In this document: piece by piece, positions 2,516 through 61,348 of the stretch
How the letters are laid out: every line of letters begins with the position of its first letter
Numbering within the stretch: the stretch's first letter is position 1
DNA from: Oscillospiraceae bacterium
Lineage (GTDB): Bacteria; Bacillota; Clostridia; Oscillospirales; CAG-272
Reading direction: 5' to 3'
Length of the DNA: 64,000 nucleotides
Assembly: GCA_015064965.1 (NCBI GenBank)
Contig: SVRG01000001.1
Location: 24,448 to 88,447, forward strand
Made by a program: the position numbers and the translations under genes
Notes under the pieces: generated by a model
What the model saw: the letters and a program-made list of their open reading frames with translations, nothing else
The model's database searches: none
What the model was told of the DNA's origin: nothing

Positions 2516-2628
2516 TTCATTTTCCTCACATTAAAATAATTAACCATAATATTATACATCATAATGTAAAGTTTTTCAAGAGGTAAGATGAATTATGGTT
2601 CATAAGCACTCTGTGTGCTACCACATGT

Positions 2629-2733
2629 GTCATTCTGAGCGAATGCGAAGAATCTGAAAACCTTGCATATGCAAGGTTTTTCTTAGGGAGACGCGCCTTC
2701 GGCGCGCAGATCCTTCACTGCGTTCAGGATGAC
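2629..2733 (+). repeat. TIR-bounded hairpin-rich intergenic repeat (MITE/REP-like), copy 1
   Basis: GTCATTCTGAGCGAATGCGAAGAATC ... two internal hairpins ... GATCCTTCACTGCGTTCAGGATGAC. The arms are imperfect inverted repeats. The same architecture occurs at 50145, 51212, 57644 and 61219. Confidence 0.85.
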
Positions 2734-2798: not shown

Positions 2799-4751
2799 TT
2801 ATTTCTTTTTAAACTTGGGTGCGGGAACGGGGGTGTCGGTAGGACCGTAAACGCGGAGTACATCGGGGCCGCCGTCCTCGGAGGGAACAAAATAGAAGCG
2901 GTCAATGCAGATATCGCGGTCAAAGCCCTTGTTGTTTGCACGGTCGGAGTGCTTGTGGTAAACAACGTAGTTTTCTTCAAGGTCGGGGCAAACTACAAAC
3001 ATGCAGTCGCCTGCGCCCTCAACATAGCGGTTAGAGGCAAGCACCTCGTTGTACTTGTACTTCTTGTATGGGCCGTAAATATCCTTACTTACCGCATACG
3101 ATTCACCATAGTGACCGCGGAAGTGACCGGATGCATACATCATGTAGTAATAACCGTTATGCTTTGTGATAACGCCGCCCTCAGAAATGGGTGCCCACTC
3201 GTCAATTTCATAATGCTCGGTGGGGCTGATGCAGTGAACCGCGTCGCGCTTCTTGGAAAGCACGCCGTCTTTTGCATCAAGTTCCTGGATATATATATGG
3301 TTGCCGCCGCCAAAACGAACGGTGGTGATGTAAACTCTGCCGTCATCGTCAACGAAAGGTGCGCCGCCGATTTCAGGCTCGGTGTTTACGTAGGGCTTTT
3401 CCTTGTTCATAACGAAGGGACCGAGAGGTGAGCGTGCGCTTGCATAGAATACGCGGAACTCTGTAGGTCCGTAGCCGCCTGCGAACTGCGAAGCAATAAG
3501 CAGATAGAACCAGCCGTCCTTGTAGAACACATTGGGGCTCATAAAATAGTGAATGGGGCTATCCTCGGTAATTGAGAAAGCGAAACCTGCCTCTTCCCAA
3601 TCATAGAGGTTCTTGGAGGTGCGAACTCTTACAGAGCACTTTGAACCAAAGGGATGATGAAGTGTATAGAGGTAAAATGTACCGTCATGATAGAGGATTT
3701 CGGGGTCTGCACCATAGGTTACAGGGTTTACATAGGTTTCGCCCTCGTAAAGAGAAGCCTTGTCAATATCAAAAGTGATGGGCGCAGTTGTACCAATGTT
3801 GTAGGTGCCGGGCTTTTTAACCTGAACTTCCATAATTGGCCAGGTGTGGTCGCCAAAGTAGAAAGAGAGTACATTGCCGCCGTTTACTGCAGTGAAATCA
3901 TATGTATTGCCTGCGGTGAGCTGCATTGCGTGCTGTGTAAGGAACATGAGCTTGCCGTGGAGATACTTGTATGCAACAAGGCGCTCAACTGCCGCATCAT
4001 AGCCAAATGCAAAGCCCTGACCGTTCTTTTCAAAAACTACAAGTTCTTCTGCATTTGTAGGAGTAAGGCGAGCAGTAAGCTTTTCGCAAAGACCGAGAGT
4101 TGCATCAGTATAGGTAGTGGGCTCTTTCTTTTCGTAAATCTTGAGGTTGGTAAAGCCGCCCTTGCCGCCGTCGTTGTTGATGCGGATAGCGATTGTACCG
4201 GTTTCAAACGGAGAGCGGTCAAATGCGCTGTCGCCCTTGCGGTACTCTGCTCTGTAAAGCTCTTCTTTGGTTTCGCAGTCGGAAATTGTGTAAACGATGT
4301 AGTCACCTGTTACACGGATATAAAAATGAAGGTCCTGACCGATGGTGAATCTGTCGCCGTTTTTGCTTGCAGTAAAATTACCGCTCCACTTACCGGGATG
4401 TGTTGTACAACCGAGTGCGCCGCCGAGACCGTCAACGCTTACAAATGCGTAGTAGCCGTTGGCTTTGTCATCTTCGGGAGTGCTTTTCTTCATTCCGCCG
4501 GCAACGCCGCCAAAGAAAATTCCGCCGCCGCCCTGATGATTGATAAAGTCTGCCTCAAGCACAAAATTGGGCTTGTTTGCAAACTCAAGAAGCGCTGTGG
4601 AGTGTCCACCGGTCTTGGTGGTGCGGAGCGCACCGTCACGAACTTCCATGTCACCGAAAATAACGGTAAAATCCTTCATGGAGTTATCGCTGAAATTGTT
4701 TTCGTAAGCGAGAAGCATATCTTTTGCCTCTCCGAATGTATAATTTGCCAT
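2799..4751 (-). CDS. Glycoside hydrolase family 43 (beta-xylosidase/arabinofuranosidase-like) with N-terminal DUF1080/LamG-like module
   Basis: The C-terminal half has five-bladed-propeller GH43-type blocks (YHDGTFYLY, FYKDGWFYLLIA, FVDDDGRVYIT, HNGYYYMMYASG). Start moved to MANYTF (ATG 4749-4751) because of SD ggagg 7 nt upstream. No signal peptide. Confidence 0.8.
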   Translation of the reverse strand: MANYTFGEAKDMLLAYENNFSDNSMKDFTVIFGDMEVRDGALRTTKTGGHSTALLEFANKPNFVLEADFINHQGGGGIFFGGVAGGMKKSTPEDDKANGYYAFVSVDGLGGALGCTTHPGKWSGNFTASKNGDRFTIGQDLHFYIRVTGDYIVYTISDCETKEELYRAEYRKGDSAFDRSPFETGTIAIRINNDGGKGGFTNLKIYEKKEPTTYTDATLGLCEKLTARLTPTNAEELVVFEKNGQGFAFGYDAAVERLVAYKYLHGKLMFLTQHAMQLTAGNTYDFTAVNGGNVLSFYFGDHTWPIMEVQVKKPGTYNIGTTAPITFDIDKASLYEGETYVNPVTYGADPEILYHDGTFYLYTLHHPFGSKCSVRVRTSKNLYDWEEAGFAFSITEDSPIHYFMSPNVFYKDGWFYLLIASQFAGGYGPTEFRVFYASARSPLGPFVMNKEKPYVNTEPEIGGAPFVDDDGRVYITTVRFGGGNHIYIQELDAKDGVLSKKRDAVHCISPTEHYEIDEWAPISEGGVITKHNGYYYMMYASGHFRGHYGESYAVSKDIYGPYKKYKYNEVLASNRYVEGAGDCMFVVCPDLEENYVVYHKHSDRANNKGFDRDICIDRFYFVPSEDGGPDVLRVYGPTDTPVPAPKFKKK

Positions 4752-4782
4752 AGTTATACCTCCGTTAATACTTGGTAATAAA

Positions 4783-4887: not shown

Positions 4888-5547
4888 TTAAACGATGGGG
4901 TTTTCAGCGTCAGAAGCGTTTGCTGAGTCAACATAGAAGTATGCGGCGTAAAGTCCCTGGAAAATGGAGCTGAAGAGCGCAATTGCAATGATGAAAAGAA
5001 GTGTAACAAGTGCAAAGAGAATTCCGATGAAAGGAATTGCGCTGAGCAAGCCAAGAATGAAAGAAATTACAAAAATACCGCCGAAGAAGCAGATATCAGC
5101 AAGGAACATCTGCATTTTCTTGCCCTTTGTCATTTCCATGGAAAGGCGGAGCGCCTGAGTTGCGGTAACTTCGGGCTTTGTCATGAGTATGTAGGGCACA
5201 AAGCGATATGAATAAGCCTTTACAATACCTACGATCGGAACAACGGACCAGATGATAGTCCAGAGAGTCTGCCAAGCCATGCCGCCGACAATGCGAACAC
5301 AGTTCTTGTTAAATGCTGAGAAAAGCTGGTCGGAATTAACCTCTTTACCGTTCAGGCCGTCAATATAAATTCTCGCCATGCCGCAGGTAATGAGAATGGA
5401 AAATGCTGCGCCGAGAACCATAACAGGTGCAGTAAAAATAGTTGCAAGCATTGTAATAATGCCGCTGAGGAGCGAAAGACCCCAAAGCATAATCGGTTTT
5501 TTGGAAATTACTGCCAGCGCTTTTTTGTATGCTTCAAGAAACATCAT
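4888..5547 (-). CDS. Integral membrane protein of unknown function (possibly DUF975-like)
   Basis: 219-aa ORF with several long hydrophobic segments and SD aaggagg upstream. The family assignment is from memory of the general pattern only. Confidence 0.55.
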   Translation of the reverse strand: MMFLEAYKKALAVISKKPIMLWGLSLLSGIITMLATIFTAPVMVLGAAFSILITCGMARIYIDGLNGKEVNSDQLFSAFNKNCVRIVGGMAWQTLWTIIWSVVPIVGIVKAYSYRFVPYILMTKPEVTATQALRLSMEMTKGKKMQMFLADICFFGGIFVISFILGLLSAIPFIGILFALVTLLFIIAIALFSSIFQGLYAAYFYVDSANASDAENPIV

Positions 5548-5665: not shown

Positions 5666-8311
5666 TTACTTATTCTTTGCAAGTCTTCTCTGGACAAACT
5701 TAACAATTTCTACTATCGGGATAGTGAGCGCAGAAAGTCCGAGCGCAATGAGATACTCGGTAAGGTCAATCTGCGTAAAGCCGAATGCATTTGCAAGGAA
5801 AGGAACCTCGCACACGAGAGTGGTTGCAACAAGGCTGCCGAGTGCTGCAATGCCAAGCACCTTATTAAAGCTGCCGAGTGTGAAAATGGAGCCGCGCTGC
5901 GAACGCATATTGAAACTGTGGAATATCTCTGCCATGGACATTGTGAGGAATGCCATTGTCATGCCGTGGTCGGCAGGGTTTATTGCGCCATGGTCTGCGC
6001 CGATAAAGGCGCCGATAAAATAGGAGATGAGTGTGAGGGCTGAAACCATGATGCCCTGATATGCTACATCAAATCCCATGCCGCCTGCAAATACGCCCTC
6101 GTTAGCCTTCCTGGGCTTGCGCTTCATTATGCCGGGCTCTGCCTTTTCCATGCCAAGTGCAAGCGCGGGGAAACAGTCGGTTACAAGGTTGATCCAAAGG
6201 AGGTGTACGGGCTTGAGAATTGTAAAGCCCATGAGTGTTGCCGCAAAAATCGAGATAACCTCGCTCATGTTGGAGCCGAGGAGGAACTGAATGGATTTAC
6301 GGATATTATCGTAAATACGTCTGCCCTCTTCAACCGCACCGACAATTGTTGCAAAGTTGTCGTCGGCAAGTACCATGTCGGCAACGTTTTTTGTAACGTC
6401 GGTACCGGTAATACCCATGCCGACACCGATATCCGCGGACTTGATGGAGGGTGCATCGTTTACACCGTCACCTGTCATCGCGGTTACATAGCCTGCGCCG
6501 CGCCAAGCGTTGACAATTCTTGTCTTATGTTCGGGCTGGACACGCGCATAAACGCCGATATCCATGAACACTTTTTCAAATTCTTCGTCGCTCATTTCAG
6601 AAAGCTCGCTTCCTGTAATGGCACGTCTGCCCTCGGTGAGAATACCAAGTTCCTTGGCAATTGCAACCGCGGTGTCGATGTGGTCACCGGTAATCATAAT
6701 TGCGCGGATACCTGCGCTCTTGCACTCTGCAATAGCATCCTTAACCTCGGGACGAACTGGGTCTATCATACCTGTAAGACCTACAAAGCAAAGCTCTTTT
6801 TCAAGGTCGGAGGGTTCGAGAGAGTCGGGCTTTGCATCATAAACGCGCATGGATGCGGCAAGCACACGGAGCGCGCGGTCTGCCATTTCCTTGTTTGCCG
6901 CCATGATCTCTTTCATCTTTTCATCGGTCATCGGCATAACGGTGCCGTTTTCGATGTATACAGTGCAACGGCGGAGAATTTCATCGGGTGCGCCCTTTGT
7001 ATACTGCACAAACTTTCCGTCCTCGCTGTGAATGGTGGACATCATCTTTCTGCCGCTGTCAAAGGGAGCCTCGCCAACTCTGGGAGAAGCTGTTTTGAGA
7101 TCGTTTTTCTTAAGGTCAAGTGCCTTTGCATATGCAACAAGCGCAGCCTCGGTGGGCTCGCCGGTGATGTTGCCGTCCTCGTCAAGCTCGGCATCGGAGC
7201 AAAGCGCCATTGCCTTTGCAAGAAGCTTTTCATCGTTGCCAAAATGGTCAACAACGGTCATCTTATTCTGTGTAAGTGTACCTGTCTTATCGGAACAGAT
7301 GATCTGCGCGCAGCCAAGCGTTTCGACCGCGGTGAGGCGGCGGATAATAGCACGGCGCTTTGACATGTTGGTAACACCGATGGAAAGCACAACGGTAACA
7401 ACCATTGCAAGTCCCTCAGGAATTGCAGCAACGGCAAGCGAAACTGCCACCATAAAGGATTCGAGAACCTTTTTGAAGATCTCCATTTCGGAGGGACGGA
7501 TAAGCTGAACTGCGAAAATAACAACGCTTATACCAAGTACAAGGTATGTCAGAATTTTTGAAAGCTGTGCAAGCTTTATCTGGAGAGGCGTCTGTCCCTC
7601 TGCCGCGTTTGCAAGCGCATCGGCGATCTTACCCATCTCGGTATCCATACCCGTAGCGGTTACAACAAACGCACCGCGGCCGTAAACCACAGTGGATCCC
7701 ATGTAAACCATGTTTTTGCGGTCGCCAAGGGGAACATCCTTATCCTCGTTTGCAAGGTTGATAACCTCAAGCATCTTGTTTACGGGAACGCTCTCGCCTG
7801 TCAGTGCCGCTTCTTCAATCTTAAGGCTGGCATTTTCGATAATACGTCCGTCAGCAGGAACTGCATCGCCCGCTTCAAGAAACACAACGTCGCCGACAAC
7901 AAGATCTTCGCTCTTGACTATCACAAGTTTTCCGTCGCGGAGAACCTTGGACGTAGCCGCGCTCATTTCTTGCAGCGCTTCTATTGCCTTTTCCGCCTTG
8001 GATTCCTGATAAACACCGAGAACCGCGTTCATGATTACAACAAAGAGGATGATGAATACATCGACAAAGCCTTCGCCGCTCTCAATTACTGCTGTAACAG
8101 CGCTGATTCCTGCCGCAACAAGCAGAATAATGATCATCGGGTCTGCAAGCTGCTTTAAAAACCGCTTGATAAGCGATTCTTTTTTAGCCTCTTTGAGCTT
8201 GTTCTTGCCGTTTTTCTCAAGGCGCTTTTGAGCTTCTTCGCCCGAAAGACCGCTTTCGGAAGAATCGACTGCACTCAGTACCTCTTCCGAAGTTTCAGTG
8301 TAGAACTTCAT
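5666..8311 (-). CDS. Cation-translocating P-type ATPase (P2 Ca2+/Mn2+ type)
   Basis: 881 aa with CSDKTGTLTQN phosphorylation motif, TGES, MITGDH and TGDGVNDAPS hinge, and about 10 TM segments. Preceded by a Mn2+-type riboswitch. Confidence 0.93.
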   Translation of the reverse strand: MKFYTETSEEVLSAVDSSESGLSGEEAQKRLEKNGKNKLKEAKKESLIKRFLKQLADPMIIILLVAAGISAVTAVIESGEGFVDVFIILFVVIMNAVLGVYQESKAEKAIEALQEMSAATSKVLRDGKLVIVKSEDLVVGDVVFLEAGDAVPADGRIIENASLKIEEAALTGESVPVNKMLEVINLANEDKDVPLGDRKNMVYMGSTVVYGRGAFVVTATGMDTEMGKIADALANAAEGQTPLQIKLAQLSKILTYLVLGISVVIFAVQLIRPSEMEIFKKVLESFMVAVSLAVAAIPEGLAMVVTVVLSIGVTNMSKRRAIIRRLTAVETLGCAQIICSDKTGTLTQNKMTVVDHFGNDEKLLAKAMALCSDAELDEDGNITGEPTEAALVAYAKALDLKKNDLKTASPRVGEAPFDSGRKMMSTIHSEDGKFVQYTKGAPDEILRRCTVYIENGTVMPMTDEKMKEIMAANKEMADRALRVLAASMRVYDAKPDSLEPSDLEKELCFVGLTGMIDPVRPEVKDAIAECKSAGIRAIMITGDHIDTAVAIAKELGILTEGRRAITGSELSEMSDEEFEKVFMDIGVYARVQPEHKTRIVNAWRGAGYVTAMTGDGVNDAPSIKSADIGVGMGITGTDVTKNVADMVLADDNFATIVGAVEEGRRIYDNIRKSIQFLLGSNMSEVISIFAATLMGFTILKPVHLLWINLVTDCFPALALGMEKAEPGIMKRKPRKANEGVFAGGMGFDVAYQGIMVSALTLISYFIGAFIGADHGAINPADHGMTMAFLTMSMAEIFHSFNMRSQRGSIFTLGSFNKVLGIAALGSLVATTLVCEVPFLANAFGFTQIDLTEYLIALGLSALTIPIVEIVKFVQRRLAKNK

Positions 8312-8352
8312 GTGATTTCCTCCCTTTATATATATTTTATTTTGGGTAACTA

Positions 8353-8479
8353 ATCAAAAAGACTCATGGATAGGGTATCCCTATCCATGAGTCTTGTCAT
8401 TTAACTCAAGCCAGATACAAAAACTGTACCGATTGTTGAACTTGAACCGACTTTTTAAGCCGTGACTACTCCCTCACGA
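8353..8479 (-). promoter_or_regulatory. yybP-ykoY (Mn2+) riboswitch with intrinsic terminator expression platform
   Basis: Minus strand: UCGUGAG-GGAGUAG-UCACGG...AAAGUCGG...CUGGCUUGAG...AUGACAAGA-CUCAUGG. This matches the conserved GGGAGUAG, AAAGUCG, GGCUU and CAAGAC blocks of the class as I recall them from the L. lactis structure. The P1 3' strand CUCAUGG is also the 5' arm of the terminator GACUCAUGGAUAGGG/CCCUAUCCAUGAGUC + UUUUU (8353-8393). Confidence 0.7.
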
Positions 8480-8498
8480 AAATATTATTTACATTTTT

Positions 8499-8527
8499 AT
8501 TCTAACATGACAATATTTTCTTGTCAA
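8499..8527 (-). promoter_or_regulatory. Sigma-A promoter driving the riboswitch/ATPase transcript
   Basis: Minus strand TTGACA-17 nt-TAGAAT, about 20 nt upstream of the aptamer. Confidence 0.65.
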
Positions 8528-11486: not shown

Positions 11487-11530
11487 TTTTTTGAAGTCTC
11501 CTATTAAAAAATAGAGCCTTCCCGTTATTT

Positions 11531-11627
11531 CAGCGGGATGCGACATATGCACCGCGGCAAAATGCCTTCGTCCGCCTTGCAACTCCCCGTCAAGACGACA
11601 CTTCACGCGCATATGTCTACTCTGTGT
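11531..11627 (-). promoter_or_regulatory. THF (tetrahydrofolate) riboswitch, class I
   Basis: Minus strand AGAGUAGACAUAUGCGCGUGAAGUGUCGUCUUGACGGGGAGUUGCAAGGCGGACGAAGGCAUUUUGCCGCGGUGCAUAUGUCGCAUCCCGCUG. It follows block by block the E. siraeum THF aptamer as I remember it (AGAGUAG...CGCGU.AAGUGU...ACGAAG...GCGCGGUG...GCAUCCGCUC). Confidence 0.85.
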
Positions 11628-20668: not shown

Positions 20669-20697
20669 TTGACAAAGCATTACGATACTGCTATAAT
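20669..20697 (+). promoter_or_regulatory. Consensus sigma-A promoter of rplJ-rplL
   Basis: TTGACA-17 nt-TATAAT. Confidence 0.8.
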
Positions 20698-20862
20698 GCT
20701 TGTGTTACCGAAGACAGCAGGTTACGGTAAAAGCATGTTTTGATGCTTTCCTGCCGAGGAATGTTTTATAAATATGACTATTTATGATCTTTCTCGGAAT
20801 CTTTCTGTCTTTCCGTAGAAAGATTTATTTTTTTGCAAAAGTTTAACGGAGGTGAAATTACT
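20698..20862 (+). promoter_or_regulatory. Ribosomal protein L10 leader (autoregulatory) with attenuator hairpin
   Basis: About 165-nt structured leader between a consensus promoter and rplJ. Terminator-like AATCTTTCT/AGAAAGATT + T9 at 20798-20834 lies just before the SD. Class assigned from position and architecture, not motif-matched. Confidence 0.6.
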
Positions 20863-50020: not shown

Positions 50021-50144
50021 AAACACACCTCCTATATATGTATCTTAATTATTATACTACATAAAAAACCAAATGTAAATGAAATTTAAGTGAAAATTTG
50101 ATGTAACAGTAAATTATAGATTATCTTTTTATCTGTCATCCTGA

Positions 50145-50240
50145 ACGCAGTGAAGGATCTGCGAGCCGTAGGCTCGTCTTCGGGAGAAAAACCTTGATTG
50201 CATCAAGGTTTTCAGATTCTTCGCATTCGCTCAGAATGAC
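50145..50240 (-). repeat. TIR-bounded hairpin-rich intergenic repeat, copy 2 (inverted orientation)
   Basis: gtcatcctgaacgcagtgaaggatc...gattcttcgcattcgctcagaatgac. A left-side extension up to ~50279 abuts or overlaps the hslO stop codon. Confidence 0.85.
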
Positions 50241-50277
50241 ACGTGTAGGTACTTAGCATTGTACGCTAACCTATAAT

Positions 50278-51159
50278 TTACAGTCCCAGATCTTTTTTGG
50301 TAAAGGTAAATGCCTTGTTGCAGAAACGGCAGCATATCTCAAGCTCCTCCGCTTTGCCCTCGGCAACTTGCTCCTCAAACATTTCATTTAAATCTTTTGC
50401 GCCCACCGAAATAAGCGCGCGCTTCATGCGGTCGCGAGAGCAATCGCATTTATACTCAACATCAAGCACGTCAAATGGGTCATATTCAATGCCCGAAAGC
50501 GCGATTTCTGCAATTTCTTCAAGGGTTTTTCCCTCATCAAAAAGGCGCGAAACATTTGAAAGCTGCGCCGCGTTTTTCTCAAGCTTTGAAATCACCTCTT
50601 CATCTGCAAAAGGAAGCAGCTGAACAAGCACTCCGCCCGCTGCGCGAACGGTTGCATCCTTATCAACAAGCACTCCGAGTGCAAGCAATGTGGGAACCTG
50701 CTCGCTTTCCGCGTAGTATGCCGCGATATCCTCGGCAATTTCGCCAGTGCGAAGCTCCACCATGCCGATGTGCGGCTCTGCCTGTCCGCATTCGCGCACA
50801 ACGGTCATGCGTCCAAAGCCAACCGCGCCGCCAACATCAAGATGCCCGTTTGCCTTAATCGGGAGATGTGTTTCGGGGTTTTCTACATACGCTTTTACAT
50901 TGCCGTAGTAGTCGCCAACTGCAATAAGCTTGCCAATGGGACCCTCTCCGTTGATCTGCACGGTGGTAGTGTCCTGCACCTCGCCGTTCATTGAGCCCAT
51001 CATTGAAACCGCGGTGAGAAGTCTGCCGCCTGCCGCTGTTGCCGTGGGAGCTGTTGCATGAAGTTTGCGGAACTCTTCAACCATCGCTGTTGAATTTATT
51101 ACATGGATGCGTGCGCTGCCGTCGCGCGTCATCGCACGAAGTATCTGTGATTTAGCCAT
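50278..51159 (-). CDS. hslO: Redox-regulated chaperone Hsp33
   Basis: Start at MAKSQILRAMT (SD aaggag). C-terminal zinc centre CDCS...CRFC. The longer ORF-track form starts inside repeat copy 3. Confidence 0.9.
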   Translation of the reverse strand: MAKSQILRAMTRDGSARIHVINSTAMVEEFRKLHATAPTATAAGGRLLTAVSMMGSMNGEVQDTTTVQINGEGPIGKLIAVGDYYGNVKAYVENPETHLPIKANGHLDVGGAVGFGRMTVVRECGQAEPHIGMVELRTGEIAEDIAAYYAESEQVPTLLALGVLVDKDATVRAAGGVLVQLLPFADEEVISKLEKNAAQLSNVSRLFDEGKTLEEIAEIALSGIEYDPFDVLDVEYKCDCSRDRMKRALISVGAKDLNEMFEEQVAEGKAEELEICCRFCNKAFTFTKKDLGL

Positions 51160-51211
51160 ACTATTCTCCTTGAAAAAATTAATGTTTATGGGGATTGTTG
51201 AAATCCACCCT

Positions 51212-51307
51212 GTCATTCTGAGCGAATGCGAAGAATCTGCGAACCGCAGGTTCGTCTTAGAAAAACCGCGAGGCGGTTTTCGGATCCTTCACTGCGTTCA
51301 GGATGAC
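51212..51307 (+). repeat. TIR-bounded hairpin-rich intergenic repeat, copy 3 (arms in + orientation, core in the opposite order)
   Basis: gtcattctgagcgaatgcgaagaatc-[GC hairpin cgaacc/ggttcg]-[gaaaaaccgc/gcggttttc]-ggatccttcactgcgttcaggatgac. Confidence 0.85.
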
Positions 51308-51328
51308 GTATAAAAAACAAACATTAAT

Positions 51329-56847: not shown

Positions 56848-57641
56848 TGGCAACTTTAAAACTATCGGCGGGCAAAATTGCCCGCCGAATTGCAGAAAAA
56901 GGCGAAATCGGCACTGTAATCGGCGTTTTTTCACAAGGAATCTATTGCAAAGTGCGTGCTGAAATCATCCTTTTCCACTGCAAAAAATGGGGATATGTTC
57001 CCTTTGGACTTGGGCTTGAAAGCTTTTCTGCCTTTTCCGAAGAGGTGAGCGCAAATGTGGGCGACACAGTTGTTCTCACCGAAAACTCGCTTGCCATGTC
57101 GGGCAAAACCTTTGATGTGGAGCTTTCGTGCGAAGCTCCCACTCCCTTTGCTCCGAGCGGCGATGCGGACAAGGAACGCCTTGATGAAATTTTTAAGTAT
57201 GTCAGCGAGCACGGCTCTGCGGCAGGTATTTTAGACCTCATCGAGAAAAACCGCATTGGCTGCCGCGACGCGATACGCGACCTTGCAAACGGCGACATCG
57301 GCGCCGCATCAAAACTTATCGGCCTTGGCAGGGGGCTCACACCGTCGGGCGATGATTTTCTCTGCGGATACTTTGCAGTGCTCAACGCACGCGGCGTGCT
57401 TGCAGTTTCACTGCGTGAAAGCATCTACGACAGTCTCGACCGAACAACGCAGATAAGCGCCGCATACATAAGCGCAGTGCTCGGCAGACGCTATTTCTCA
57501 ATCTATGACAGCGCAGTGAAAGCTATCTTTTCAGACGGCGACTTTAAAAAGGACGTTGACTTTGTGCTCTCCATGGGTGCCTCCAGCGGCACTGACACCA
57601 TGGTTGGCGCGCTTGTTGCTGCAAGATATAACCTTTTCTAG
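56847..57641 (+). CDS. DUF2877-domain protein
   Basis: 264 aa, GLGRGLTPSGDDFLCGYF motif typical of DUF2877 (memory-based). The ATG overlaps the kinase TAA by 1 nt. Confidence 0.65.
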   Translation: MATLKLSAGKIARRIAEKGEIGTVIGVFSQGIYCKVRAEIILFHCKKWGYVPFGLGLESFSAFSEEVSANVGDTVVLTENSLAMSGKTFDVELSCEAPTPFAPSGDADKERLDEIFKYVSEHGSAAGILDLIEKNRIGCRDAIRDLANGDIGAASKLIGLGRGLTPSGDDFLCGYFAVLNARGVLAVSLRESIYDSLDRTTQISAAYISAVLGRRYFSIYDSAVKAIFSDGDFKKDVDFVLSMGASSGTDTMVGALVAARYNLF

Positions 57642-57643
57642 CT

Positions 57644-57749
57644 GTCATCCTGAACGAATGTGAAGGATCTGCACGGCGAAGCCGTGTCTCTTTTAGAAAA
57701 ACCTTGTATGCACAAGGTTTTCAGATTCTTCGCTCACGCTCAGAATGAC
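57644..57749 (-). repeat. TIR-bounded hairpin-rich intergenic repeat, copy 4 (inverted orientation)
   Basis: gtcatcctgaacgaatgtgaaggatc...gattcttcgctcacgctcagaatgac. It starts 2 nt after the DUF2877 stop. Confidence 0.85.
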
Positions 57750-57765
57750 GGATTGTATTACGTCA

Positions 57766-57793
57766 AAAAAGGCACTCATAAGAGTGCCTTTTT
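57766..57793. terminator. Bidirectional rho-independent terminator
   Basis: aaaaaggcactc-ataa-gagtgccttttt. Confidence 0.8.
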
Positions 57794-61197: not shown

Positions 61198-61218
61198 GAT
61201 AGTTAATATGGTCCACTT

Positions 61219-61325
61219 GTCATTCTGAGCAAATGCGAAGAATCTGAAAACCTTGATGAAATCAAGGTTTTTCTTAAAGGAGACACGCCTGCGGCGTGCA
61301 GATCCTTCACTGCGTTCAGGATGAC
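61219..61325 (+). repeat. TIR-bounded hairpin-rich intergenic repeat, copy 5
   Basis: gtcattctgagcaaatgcgaagaatc...gatccttcactgcgttcaggatgac. The left boundary box (taatatgg..ccactt) lies only ~7 nt from the nth start codon. Confidence 0.85.
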
Positions 61326-61348
61326 AATTAGAAAGATAAATTTATAAT

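What the first reader, a model, noticed from the sequence alone, without database searches (positions are those of the whole stretch)
2591..2733. Five-copy family of TIR-bounded, hairpin-rich intergenic elements (MITE/REP-like) with compensatory stem variation
The copies are at 2629-2733 (+), 50145-50240 (-), 51212-51307, 57644-57749 (-) and 61219-61325 (+). Each has four parts in order:
- a left arm GTCATTCTGAGCGAATGCGAAGAATC;
- an A/T-flanked hairpin (GAAAACCTTG..CAAGGTTTTT), which looks like a bidirectional terminator;
- a GC hairpin;
- a right arm GATCCTTCACTGCGTTCAGGATGAC, an imperfect inverted repeat of the left arm.

The GC hairpin differs in every copy but always pairs: CGCGCC/GGCGCG, CGAGCC/GGCTCG, CGAACC/GGTTCG, CACGGC/GCCGTG, CACGCC/GGCGTG.

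In copies 1, 2 and 3 the left side extends further. The extension is an aattatgg-like box, a third variable hairpin (AGCAC/GTGCT, TTAGC/GCTAA, GGATT/AATCC) and a CCAC-like box. Copy 5 keeps both boxes but lacks that hairpin.

All copies lie within a few to about 75 nt of a start or stop codon, and both orientations occur relative to transcription. No transposase is present in the window. I know that such arms generate spurious small ORFs (VILSE.../HCVQDD...) in annotations, but I cannot name the family.
Basis: seen in the sequence. Interest (0 to 1): 0.55.

Follow-up and report, generated by a model that had tools for sequence, protein, structure and literature searches.

The report
Paired nuclease-site hairpin repeats (SRM dimers)
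The five repeats are pairs of a small DNA hairpin motif that occurs in nearly every bacterial phylum and elsewhere flanks the gene of a tiny single-strand-DNA nuclease (Ssn), so they are a variant of a known repeat class, not an unknown transposon.

Summary
In detail: there are five intergenic copies, each bounded by two inverted ~25-nt arms. The arms are not ordinary transposon ends. Each arm is its own hairpin: GTC tag, 5 Watson-Crick pairs, tandem G·A, 2 pairs, a 3-4 nt loop (GNA in four of five right arms), then C-TG. Covariation across hundreds of arms from other genomes supports this fold.

The same arm is found in nearly all bacterial phyla. In every case I inspected (5 of 5) it directly flanks a ~94-aa single-domain GIY-YIG gene, arranged as forward arm, gene, reverse arm. 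That protein is homologous to the GIY-YIG genes next to exact Neisseria NTS/dRS3 repeats. It therefore belongs to the Ssn family of ssDNA-specific nucleases (Chenal 2025). The arms fit the SRM / 'CGTC-tagged REP' class (Di Nocera 2013).

The window copies have the same arm geometry, but two small hairpins replace the gene. They are ssn-less miniatures, comparable to NIME or BIME units.

Related species (Hsp33 86-91% identical) have empty sites at two of the loci. Within the species the three loci checked are fixed and identical.

The published SRM search string matches 0 of 429 arms of this tandem-G·A type.

Verdict: a new variant of a known kind. Interest is moderate.

The parts
2591..2628 (+). 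Copy 1, left extension H0: AATTA-TGG, variable hairpin AGCAC/GTGCT, CCA-CATGT. TGG pairs with CCA.
   Evidence: fold -6.1 kcal/mol, z -2.1
2629..2656 (+). Copy 1, left SRM-type arm hairpin, forward on +: GTC-ATTCT-GA-GC-GAAT-GC-GA-AGAAT-C-TG
2657..2706 (+). Copy 1 spacer: A/T-flanked hairpin AAAACCTTG/CAAGGTTTT (2657-2680) and GC hairpin CGCGCC/GGCGCG (2692-2706)
   Evidence: spacer fold -17.6 kcal/mol, z -5.4
2707..2733 (-). Copy 1, right SRM-type arm, forward on the - strand: GTC-ATCCT-GA-AC-GCA-GT-GA-AGGAT-C-TG
50100..50277 (-). Copy 2, whole inserted segment (178 nt). It starts right after the Hsp33 stop codon and is absent from the orthologous spacer in L427, L428, L426, L423, L424 and L425. 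Outer inverted boxes ATTATAG / CTATAAT.
50213..50240 (-). Copy 2, left-type arm (forward on -)
50135..50161 (+). Copy 2, right-type arm (forward on +)
51178..51328 (+). Copy 3, whole inserted segment (151 nt) between the methyltransferase stop and the Hsp33 start. Absent in L427, L428 and L426 (spacers of 33, 33 and 21 nt). Outer inverted boxes ATTAATGTTT / AAACATTAAT. The inner 46 nt are inverted relative to the other copies.
51212..51239 (+). Copy 3, left-type arm (forward on +)
51281..51307 (-). Copy 3, right-type arm (forward on -), tail C-CG
57644..57749 (-). Copy 4, arm-to-arm unit without outer boxes. It lies between the AllH-family gene stop (57641) and the terminator of the aminotransferase gene (57766-57793). 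Left-type arm 57724-57749 has a GTGA loop; right-type arm 57644-57669 has a GAAT loop.
61198..61348 (+). Copy 5. The unit fills the whole 151-nt spacer between the EndoIII-like start (61197) and the PBP stop (61349). H0 is reduced to TGG-T-CCA. Arms at 61219-61244 (+) and 61301-61325 (-).

Best explanation
**What each copy is.** Each copy is a 'tags-outward' dimer of a small tagged DNA hairpin. This hairpin is a tandem-G·A variant of the Ssn-related motif (SRM), also catalogued as the CGTC/TGTC-tagged REP class. The two hairpins are separated by a 46-57-nt spacer that holds two further stem-loops.

**Structure of the arm.**
- 5' unpaired tag, (T/C)GTC
- 5 Watson-Crick pairs, ATYCT/AGRAT
- a tandem G·A / A·G
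- 2 more pairs, GC/GC or AC/GT
- a 3-4 nt loop
- an unpaired C, then TG

**Expected mechanism, by analogy.** In the characterised members of the class (Neisseria NTS with SsnA, and Wolbachia), the hairpin forms only in single-stranded DNA. It is bound in one orientation by a ~94-aa single-domain GIY-YIG nuclease (Ssn), which nicks the strand a few nucleotides 5' of the tag. I infer the same for this variant, because genes of that protein family are flanked by exactly these arms: forward arm, 16-18 nt, ssn, stop, reverse arm.

**How the window copies relate to that unit.** They have the same arm geometry with the gene replaced by two hairpins. They are ssn-less miniatures, as MITEs are to IS elements or NIME/BIME units to their cores. 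In a tags-outward dimer each strand carries one forward site at its 5' side. Whichever strand is exposed (replication, repair, or DNA taken up) can therefore be nicked just outside the unit.

**History.** The units entered intergenic spots of this Ruminococcaceae lineage after it split from relatives whose Hsp33 is 86-91% identical. At the three loci checked (copies 1, 4 and 5) they are now fixed.

**Shown here:** the anatomy, the arm covariation, the cross-phylum distribution, the linkage to GIY-YIG genes, the empty sites, and the inversion of the spacer in copy 3.

**Taken from the literature:** ssDNA-only, strand-specific binding and cleavage by Ssn.

**Inferred:** that a cognate Ssn acts on these arms in this organism. 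How the units spread is unknown.
For: **Arm is a hairpin.**
- In 147 arms retrieved with the two positions left free, Y..R is T-A in 82, C-G in 64, T-G in 1 and C-A in 0.
- In 83 distinct arms anchored only on GTCA/GA/GA/TC, 96.7% of cells pair and 6 of 7 pairs show double changes. There are 89 double-change cells against 24.7±6.6 in shuffles (0 of 500 shuffles reach this). Slid controls pair at 22-50%.
- Loops are GNA in 72% and GNNA in about 11%.

**Class features.** All 10 window arms have H-GTC before the palindrome and C after it. Nine of 10 then have TG, as in NTS CGTCATTCCCGCGMAVGCGGGAATCYRG (PMC11893778).

**Distribution.**
- More than 120 viral contigs.
- More than 120 stretches in genomes of nearly all bacterial phyla, even for the AC/GT right-arm variant.
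- Plasmids of cyanobacteria, Bacteroidota and Acidobacteria.

**Partner gene.**
- GIY-YIG ORFs (PF01541) directly abut arms in L203, L130 and L177, and in L449 and L450. That is 5 of 5 inspected.
- Some homologues end in ...DSSLRSE, which is read-through into a reverse arm.
- A profile built from these proteins hits the GIY-YIG genes next to exact NTS-type repeats (L284, L250, L342) at 1e-25 to 1e-27 over their full length. A YhbQ/UPF0213-type protein scores only 1e-6 and has no arms nearby.

**The ssn unit is itself an insertion.** sbcD-12 nt-sbcC in L461, against a 448-nt spacer holding arm-ssn-arm in L450.

**Window copies are insertions.** Both the copy 2 and copy 3 sites are empty in L426, L427 and L428. 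The relatives L429 and L430 (37 kb in total) carry no such arm, against 10 in the window.

**Dimer geometry.** 131 arms have a tags-outward partner, against 18 with only a tags-inward partner. REP dimers whose 20-100-bp spacers carry two stem-loops are described for CGTC repeats (PMC3733652).
Against: - The published SRM search string matches none of the 10 window arms and 0 of 429 arms of this type. As a control it matches 148 of 179 NTS-type arms.
- No ssn gene or remnant is present in the 64-kb window or in the roughly 100 kb of same-species and related contigs I fetched. I could not read the rest of the genome.
- No Ssn of this clade has been tested biochemically.
- The window's left arms have GAAT, AAAT or GTGA loops rather than GNA. 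Loop identity was reported not to matter for SsnA.
- Nearest-neighbour energy models do not predict the arm hairpin (z -0.04 to -0.65). They favour arm-to-arm pairing of the whole unit (z -6 to -7).
- The inserted segments extend 21-37 nt beyond the arms. A cut 'a few nt upstream of the arm' does not by itself define the mobile unit.
- A single dimer has only one forward site per strand. Excision of the IS200/IS605 kind is therefore not obviously possible.
Confidence: 0.72

Rival explanations
1. A classical MITE. The 25-26-nt arms would be the terminal inverted repeats of a non-autonomous element cut and pasted by a DDE transposase encoded elsewhere. A variant of this idea places the true ends at the outer AT-rich boxes (AATTATAG...CTATAATT), with the SRM dimer merely carried inside.
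For: - The arms are inverted, the unit is small, and it is intergenic.
- Empty sites exist in relatives.
- The inserted segment ends in short outer inverted boxes. Copy 2 can be read as TA[AATTATAGG...CTATAATT]TA, which is a TA duplication of the IS630/Tc1 kind.
- In L423 and L424 the same methyltransferase-Hsp33 spacer holds a different palindromic core behind a similar AAATTATTGTTTATGGG box.
Against: - The arms show internal covariation as self-folding hairpins.
- 62% of arms have no strict inverted partner within 150 nt.
- The arm is near-identical across nearly all phyla, which is unlike IS ends.
- The only gene seen bounded by the arms is ssn.
- No direct target duplication is visible at copy 3.
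- Copy 4 lacks the outer boxes altogether.
- No parent IS was found.
Confidence: 0.12
2. A REP/REPIN doublet mobilised by a REP-associated tyrosine (Y1/HUH, RAYT) transposase, as for GTAG-tagged REPs.
For: The general form is the same: a short tagged palindrome, inverted doublets with a spacer, an intergenic location, and lineage-specific expansion.
Against: - The tag is (C/T)GTC, not GTAG.
- Di Nocera et al. found no RAYT flanked by CGTC repeats (PMC3733652).
- In the loci gathered here the arms flank GIY-YIG genes.
- The one Y1_Tnp gene met (L460) is flanked by unrelated direct repeats, not by arms.
Confidence: 0.04
3. An element that works mainly at the RNA level, as a transcription terminator, an attenuator or an mRNA-stabilising hairpin cassette, kept by selection for that role.
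For: - Copies 2, 3 and 5 lie directly after stop codons with no other terminator.
- The A/T-flanked hairpin is followed by TTTTTCT in the element's forward orientation.
- The stems keep pairing through compensated changes.
- The GC hairpin of copy 4 is called terminator-like on the + strand.
Against: - Both orientations occur relative to transcription. Every unit presents one arm in sense and one in antisense.
- The invariant GTC tag and 3' C lie outside the helices.
- The terminator scan does not call the A/T-flanked hairpin in any copy.
- Copies 1 and 4 sit beside separate strong terminators (2763-2792 and 57766-57793).
- There is no Rfam match.
- SsnA does not bind RNA (PMC11893778).

A side effect on transcription remains possible.
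Confidence: 0.1

Closest known systems
NTS / dRS3 and 'Ssn-related motifs' (SRM) with the SsnA GIY-YIG ssDNA nuclease (Chenal et al., Nat Commun 2025, PMC11893778)
   Same: - The same frame: H-GTC-A-T..palindrome..A-T-C-Y-R.
- Orientation is given by an unpaired 5' tag and a 3' C.
- Mostly intergenic, and in many copies.
- Repeat-gene-repeat layout around a ~94-aa single-domain GIY-YIG gene. The proteins next to the two repeat types are homologous (1e-25 to 1e-27).
   Different: - The stem carries a conserved tandem G·A and usually a GNA triloop, instead of the CCCGCG/CGCGGG stem.
- The published search string matches 0 of 429 such arms.
- The host here is a Gram-positive gut or rumen Ruminococcaceae MAG.
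- No ssn gene lies in the window.
- Cleavage, and any role in transformation, are untested for this variant.
CGTC-tagged REP superfamily and its dimers (Di Nocera et al., BMC Genomics 2013, PMC3733652); includes dRS3 and Rickettsia RPE-4/-6
   Same: - A CGTC or TGTC unpaired tag.
- The stem starts with A-T.
- A short 3' tail.
- One inverted dimer type predominates.
- Spacers of 20-100 bp that may hold two stem-loops.
- No dedicated transposase was found.
   Different: - That catalogue lists stems of 8-9 perfect pairs and loops of 4-5 nt. It discarded palindromes with more than one mismatch, so the tandem-G·A type would have been dropped.
- It reports 5 phyla and no Firmicutes.
- Its tail consensus is CCA; here it is C-TG.
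Neisserial intergenic mosaic elements (NIMEs) and E. coli BIMEs
   Same: Repeat units in which short inverted hairpin repeats bracket variable spacers. Tandem arrays of the same build, with a ~124-nt period, occur with these arms in other genomes (L174, L173, L166).
   Different: In the window the units are single, not arrayed. BIMEs use GTAG-type REPs and RAYT.
REP / REPIN with RAYT (IS200-like Y1 transposase)
   Same: A tagged hairpin recognised as ssDNA, inverted doublets, and a single small nuclease gene flanked by its own sites.
   Different: The tag differs, and the partner protein has a different fold (GIY-YIG, not HUH/Y1). No RAYT linkage was seen.
d(GCGAAGC)-type 'extraordinarily stable' DNA mini-hairpins (Hirao et al.; from my own knowledge, not checked here)
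   Same: The tip of the commonest arms is GC-GNA-GC, preceded by sheared-type G·A steps.
   Different: That is a physical-chemistry observation on oligonucleotides. It says nothing about repeats or partner proteins. The window's left arms have 4-nt loops.

Membership tests
SRM / NTS-type Ssn target repeats (Chenal 2025) | Unpaired 5' tag H-GTC directly before the palindrome (needed for cleavage) | tested here: met
   10 of 10 window arms: TGTC in 8 and CGTC in 2
SRM / NTS-type Ssn target repeats (Chenal 2025) | Semi-palindrome that forms a hairpin, starting A-T and ending A-T | tested here: met
   Covariation: 96.7% of cells paired, 6 of 7 pairs with double changes, 0 of 500 shuffles reach this. 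Y..R is T-A in 82, C-G in 64, other in 1.
SRM / NTS-type Ssn target repeats (Chenal 2025) | C immediately 3' of the palindrome (most critical for binding), followed by Y-R | tested here: met
   C in 10 of 10 arms, followed by TG in 9 of 10 and CG in 1
SRM / NTS-type Ssn target repeats (Chenal 2025) | Match to the published degenerate string HGTCWYN(0-2)YYVSBRHN(0-5)WNVSBRGN(0-2)RNCYNB | tested here: not met
   0 of 10 window arms, 0 sites in the window, and 0 of 429 arms of this type elsewhere. As a control, the string matches the NTS consensus 3 of 3 times and 148 of 179 NTS-type arms. It fails at the S position, which is occupied by the A of the tandem G·A.
SRM / NTS-type Ssn target repeats (Chenal 2025) | Repeats flank a single-domain cd10448-type GIY-YIG (ssn) gene | tested here: met
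   This holds for the arm class: L203, L130, L177, L449 and L450. The proteins are homologous to those beside exact NTS-type repeats. The CDD assignment cd10448 itself was not run.
SRM / NTS-type Ssn target repeats (Chenal 2025) | An ssn gene is present in the genome that carries the repeats | tested here: inconclusive
   None in the window or in the fetched same-species contigs. The rest of the genome could not be read.
SRM / NTS-type Ssn target repeats (Chenal 2025) | Bound and cut only as ssDNA, forward strand only, a few nt upstream | not testable with these tools
   Needs protein and oligonucleotide assays
CGTC-tagged REP superfamily (Di Nocera 2013) | Terminal CGTC (or TGTC/CCTC) tag, with the stem beginning in complementary A-T | tested here: met
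CGTC-tagged REP superfamily (Di Nocera 2013) | Stem of 8-9 pairs with at most one mismatch; loop of 4-5 nt; 3-nt tail (consensus CCA) | tested here: not met
   The stem has 9 positions, but two of them are the G·A/A·G pair. Loops are 3 nt (four right arms) or 4 nt. The tail is C-TG.
CGTC-tagged REP superfamily (Di Nocera 2013) | Mostly one type of inverted dimer, with spacers of 20-100 bp that sometimes hold stem-loops | tested here: met
   5 of 5 window units are tags-outward dimers with 46-57-nt spacers holding two stem-loops. Elsewhere, 131 arms have a tags-outward partner against 18 tags-inward.
REP/REPIN-RAYT | GTAG-type tag, and a Y1 (RAYT) gene flanked by the repeats | tested here: not met
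   The tag is GTC. The arms flank GIY-YIG genes. The Y1_Tnp gene in L460 is flanked by unrelated repeats. This sample is limited.
MITE of a DDE insertion sequence | Terminal inverted repeats at the insertion boundary, plus a direct target-site duplication | tested here: inconclusive
   The insertion boundaries lie 21-37 nt outside the arms. Copy 2 fits TA...TA, copy 3 does not, and copy 4 has no outer boxes.
MITE of a DDE insertion sequence | A parent IS with the same ends | tested here: not met
   The only gene seen between such arms is ssn. No transposase hit in the loci was linked to arms.
MITE of a DDE insertion sequence | Presence/absence polymorphism | tested here: met
   Between species: the copy 2 and copy 3 sites are empty in L426-L428. 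Within the species there is none: copies 1, 4 and 5 are identical in 7, 6 and 10 contigs.
Intrinsic (bidirectional) terminator | GC-rich stem followed by a T-run | tested here: not met
   The scan calls the separate terminators at 2763-2792 and 57766-57793, but not the A/T-flanked hairpin of any copy. That stem has only 3 G-C pairs.

The most novel reading that the evidence does not exclude
The tandem-G·A hairpin and its ~94-aa GIY-YIG gene would together form a cosmopolitan selfish element, moved by a GIY-YIG ssDNA nuclease rather than by a DDE, HUH or serine/tyrosine enzyme. The window copies would be its non-autonomous miniatures. That would make this the most widely spread REP-like family in bacteria, and one that both published definitions miss.

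The following observations are consistent with this reading. None of them shows the mechanism:
- Empty sites exist both for the miniatures (copy 2 and copy 3 sites) and for an arm-ssn-arm unit (sbcD/sbcC).
- Ssn proteins are 75-90% identical across Tissierellales, Alkaliphilus, Syntrophomonadaceae, Ruthenibacterium and Patescibacteria.
- The spacer of copy 3 is inverted.
Probability: 0.3. Interest if true: 0.75.

Novelty: new variant of a known kind. Interest (0 to 1): 0.4.

Why it matters
**Naming the family.** It links the repeat to a partner protein family with demonstrated biochemistry: site-specific ssDNA nucleases.

**The variant falls outside both published definitions.**
- It is a tandem-G·A, GNA-loop arm class, found here in viral contigs, in genomes of nearly all bacterial phyla and in plasmids.
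- It is not matched by the published SRM search string (0 of 429 arms).
- It would also have been removed by the mismatch filter of the earlier CGTC-REP catalogue.
- Censuses based on those definitions may therefore under-count Ssn sites, especially in Gram-positive and uncultured lineages.

**Evidence on mobility.** The empty sites for both the miniature units and an arm-ssn-arm unit bear on a question the Ssn authors left open: whether these units are mobile.

**Practical points.**
- The arms generate spurious ORFs and false N-terminal extensions. One example is ORF 50278-51216, which runs into copy 3.
- The arms may break assemblies.
- Each arm/Ssn pair is a candidate new specificity for ssDNA-cutting tools.

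Tried and rejected
- **Rfam.** Gathering and E-value scans gave no family on the element, only terminator-like chance hits beside it.
- **Literature search with raw sequence words.** Only primer coincidences came up.
- **BLAST of the whole copy 1.** No match against plasmid and phage records. The canonical arm gave a few plasmid hits and only marginal hits in cultured phages.
- **The single metagenome scan.** I spent it on the 18-mer GCGAAGAATCTGAAAACC. Of 52 hits, nearly all are chance matches in coding DNA and none comes from the source lineage. This was a poor choice of pattern.
- **Viral scan for the window-specific arm plus spacer.** 0 hits.
- **Reciprocal scan of viral contigs with the Ssn profile.** Only 3 loci, all with other SRM stem types.
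- **Nearest-neighbour folding of single arms.** Not better than shuffles. The model does not credit G·A or GNA motifs, so I rely on covariation instead.
- **Hammerhead or other ribozyme reading of CUGAGCG...CGAAG.** Rejected: the core does not fit and Rfam is silent.
- **RAYT link.** Rejected.
- **Within-species polymorphism.** Looked for at copies 1, 4 and 5 and not found.
- **Target-site duplication.** Could not be settled from two filled/empty pairs.
- **ssn gene or pseudogene in the window.** Not found, even with the filters off.
Full report
**1. The observation**

The left-arm pattern occurs five times and the right-arm pattern four times, with 0 expected by chance. The fifth right arm, in copy 4, is a 26-nt variant. 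The copies are:
- c1, 2629-2733 (+)
- c2, 50135-50240 (-).
- c3, 51212-51307 (+)
- c4, 57644-57749 (-)
- c5, 61219-61325 (+)

A fuzzy search finds no other full or partial copy in the 64 kb. All copies are intergenic.

The GC hairpin stems are all perfect and differ by fully compensated changes.

Two things differ from the description.
- In c3 the 46-nt spacer is inverted relative to the arms, so the GC hairpin lies beside the left-type arm. The flanks stay with their arms.
- The 'aattatgg' and 'CCAC' boxes pair with each other (TGG/CCA). They are the base of one hairpin with a variable top, which is reduced to TGG-T-CCA in c5.

**2. The arms are hairpins in their own right, and they are found across bacteria**

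In the 147 distinct arms recovered, the two free positions covary almost perfectly: T-A 82, C-G 64, T-G 1, C-A 0. The loops are GNA in 72% and GNNA in about 11%.

The arm therefore reads GTC | ATYCT | GA | GC | GNA | GC | GA | AGRAT | C. The window's right arm, read on its own strand, is the same structure with AC/GT in place of GC/GC.

On 83 distinct arms anchored only on GTCA, the two GA steps and TC:
- 96.7% of cells pair.
- 6 of 7 pairs show changes on both sides.
- There are 89 double-change cells, against 24.7±6.6 in shuffles (0 of 500 shuffles reach this).
- Slid controls pair at 22-50%.

Energy models do not see this hairpin. The evidence for it is comparative, not thermodynamic.

My one genome scan used the window's own right-arm variant. 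Plasmids of Planktothrix, Gloeothece, Nostoc, Phocaeicola and Granulicella carry the canonical arm.

Of 390 arms scored, 131 have an inverted partner within 150 nt in the window's tags-outward geometry. Another 18 have only a tags-inward partner, and 241 have no strict partner. Tandem arrays with a period of about 124 nt also occur.

**3. The partner gene**

In a Tissierella MAG (L203), two arm dimers bracket a 94-aa ORF.

Searching all six-frame ORFs of the loci held at that stage with it found four hits. Three of them abut arms, in three phyla: L203, L130 (Cyclobacteriaceae) and L177 (Saccharibacteria). Pfam calls them GIY-YIG.

Two further homologues fetched by protein identity show the clean unit:
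- L450: arm, 18 nt, ATG...TAA, reverse arm.
- L449: the same layout with a 16-nt gap.

Some homologues end in ...DSSLRSE, which is translation running into the reverse arm.

**4. What is known**

Chenal et al. 2025 (PMC11893778) showed the following.
- Neisseria dRS3 is part of a 28-nt oriented hairpin, NTS (CGTCATTCCCGCGMAVGCGGGAATCYRG).
- NTS-like 'Ssn-related motifs' flank homologues of a 94-aa single-domain GIY-YIG protein (SsnA, cd10448) in many phyla.
- SsnA binds the hairpin only as ssDNA, and only on the forward strand. It cuts a few nt upstream.
- The C after the palindrome is critical for binding. The three nt before the palindrome are critical for cleavage.
- In N. meningitidis this restricts transformation by NTS-bearing DNA.
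- The authors note the IS-like layout NTS-ssnA-NTS, but they do not show mobility.

Di Nocera et al. 2013 (PMC3733652) had earlier catalogued 'CGTC-tagged' REPs. The tag is CGTC or TGTC, the stems start A-T, and one dimer type predominates. Spacers are 20-100 bp and sometimes hold two stem-loops. No transposase was found.

**5. Membership tests**

All ten window arms have H-GTC before the palindrome and C after it, followed by TG in nine and CG in one.

The GIY-YIG genes beside exact NTS-type repeats in viral contigs (L284, L250, L342) match a profile of the proteins beside the tandem-G·A arms at 1e-25 to 1e-27 over their full length. A YhbQ/UPF0213-type protein scores only 1e-6 and has no arms. 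PDB 1zg2 matches at only 0.008. This places both sets of proteins in the same family.

However, the published SRM string matches 0 of the 10 window arms and 0 of 429 arms of this type. As a control it matches the NTS consensus and 148 of 179 NTS-type arms. It fails where the tandem G·A sits.

Di Nocera's pipeline discarded palindromes with more than one mismatch, so it too would have dropped this type.

I therefore file the arms as a variant of the class, not as a catalogued member.

**6. Are the window units insertions?**

The source is labelled 'Ruminococcaceae bacterium', the name given to its identical Hsp33. Hsp33 is flanked by c3 upstream and c2 downstream.
- In relatives with 86-91% identical Hsp33 (L426, L427, L428), the two spacers are 21-33 nt and 80-81 nt. 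In the window they are 169 and 257 nt. Both sites are therefore empty.
- A third relative (L423, L424) is empty downstream. Upstream it carries a different palindromic insert behind a similar AAATTATTGTTTATGGG box.
- The filled/empty comparison gives inserted segments of 178 nt (c2) and 151 nt (c3). They are bounded by short outer inverted boxes and start right after the neighbour's TAA stop codon. c5 starts the same way.
- The arms are thus internal to the inserted unit. A target duplication cannot be settled: c2 fits TA...TA and c3 does not.
- Two relatives' 37 kb of sequence around Hsp33 (partly syntenic) contains no such arm.
- Within the species, c1, c4 and c5 are identical in 7, 6 and 10 independent contigs.
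- The arm-ssn-arm unit is itself an insertion. L461 has sbcD-12 nt-sbcC, whereas L450 has 448 nt containing the unit.

**7. Mechanism**

The best-supported reading is that the arms are strand-specific ssDNA recognition sites for an Ssn-family nuclease. On this reading the five units are ssn-less miniatures of arm-ssn-arm units.

With the tags outward, either exposed strand offers one forward site at its 5' edge.

What this does for the host is not shown. By analogy it could restrict or pattern recombination of single-stranded DNA. The inverted spacer of c3 shows that recombination across the arms has happened.

How the units spread is open. One forward site per strand does not allow the two same-strand cuts used by IS200/IS605. 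The insertion boundaries also lie outside the arms.

The spacer hairpins may have side effects on transcription. The scan does not call the A/T-flanked hairpin a terminator, although in c2, c3 and c5 no other terminator follows the upstream gene.

No ssn gene or remnant lies in the window or in the other contigs fetched. I could not examine the rest of the genome.

**8. Verdict**

This is a real feature that was correctly seen. It is explained by a known class, SRM / CGTC-REP dimers with the Ssn nuclease. The stem variant falls outside both published definitions. Interest is moderate. It would rise if the GIY-YIG unit proves to be a mobile element of a new mechanistic type.

Noticed in passing
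window 51238-51282: The spacer of copy 3 is inverted relative to its arms compared with copies 1, 2, 4 and 5, while the outer flanks stay with their arm types. This implies recombination or template switching across the inverted arms.
   Followed up: partly
window 50100-50134, 50241-50277, 51178-51211, 51308-51328, 61326-61348: The repeat unit extends beyond the arms. It has outer inverted AT-rich boxes (ATTATAG/CTATAAT; ATTAATGTTT/AAACATTAAT) and a semi-conserved right flank, AGAAAGATAA. In copies 2, 3 and 5 the outer box starts right after the neighbouring gene's TAA stop codon.
   Followed up: partly
L423 650-815, L424 580-743, L172 2740-2900: Related species carry a different long palindrome (GTAGGGGC...GCCGTCCCCTAC; in L172, CGTAGGGGCGATTATCAATCGCCCG) behind a similar AAATTA(T/A)TGTTTATGGG box. 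In L423 and L424 it sits in the same methyltransferase-Hsp33 spacer that copy 3 occupies in the window. This may be a GTAG-tagged REP-like family, or a shared insertion hot spot.
   Followed up: no
L450 1150-1597 versus L461 2003-2014: An arm-ssn-arm unit sits inside the sbcD-sbcC junction of a Syntrophales-like organism; 24 contigs were read and the protein is indexed in 51 collection blocks. A 76%-identical relative has the usual 12-nt junction. SbcCD is itself a hairpin nuclease.
   Followed up: partly
L174 5014-5535, L173 5479-5753, L166 7623-7988: Tandem arrays of arm dimers with a period of about 124 nt in a Gammaproteobacteria MAG and a Clostridiales MAG. They resemble NIME/BIME arrays.
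   Followed up: no
proteins P0001-P0120: Ssn homologues are 75-90% identical across Tissierellales, Alkaliphilus, Syntrophomonadaceae, Ruthenibacterium and Patescibacteria. That is far more similar than the hosts are, and it suggests horizontal spread.
   Followed up: no
window 61321-61348 (+): The end of the right arm (ATGACA), a 16-nt gap and the outer box TATAAT together form an outward-facing promoter-like site matching 11 of 12 positions. In copy 2 the same pair is spaced 15 nt.
   Followed up: no
window 50278-51216 (-) and 51065-51313 (+): Mechanical ORFs run into or across copy 3. The Hsp33 ORF gains a false 19-codon N-terminal extension that ends inside the left arm, and an 82-aa ORF spans the element. 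The real Hsp33 start is at 51159, as shown by the alignment with orthologues.
   Followed up: yes
window 57620-57643: The stop codon of the AllH-family gene lies 2 nt from the right arm of copy 4. The gene's last codons overlap the sequence that matches the unit's right-flank consensus (AGCTAGAAAAGG), so the C-terminus may derive from the insertion.
   Followed up: no
window 11529-11626 (-) and 20690-20839 (+): A THF riboswitch (85 bits) and a ribosomal protein L10 leader (62 bits). Both fit a Firmicutes-type genome.
   Followed up: no
L368 1820-1990, L369 1900-1990 and 2290-2330, L370 1800-1900: Other ssn genes are flanked by arms with the same GTC...ATC frame but different stems, for example GTCATGCCCGGGCTTGACCCGGGCATC and GTCATGCTCGCC...GGCGAGCATC. 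Viral contigs also show GTCATTGCGAGC...GCAATGAC. This is stem/nuclease co-variation across lineages.
   Followed up: partly
L460 1-35 and 990-1030: A Y1_Tnp (IS200/RAYT-like) gene next to sbcD is flanked by direct repeats AATAATT..AAAGCCTGACCCC, which are unrelated to the arms.
   Followed up: partly
L172 2600-2745: A roe-deer-colon Clostridia MAG (75-79% nt identity to window 2799-4764 and 5666-8509) has a related unit: an AAATTAATGTTTATG box, an arm, a CACGGC/GCCGTG hairpin and a decayed right arm. It sits where the window has a DUF975 gene (4888-5547). The family is therefore older than the species, but it sits at different sites.
   Followed up: partly
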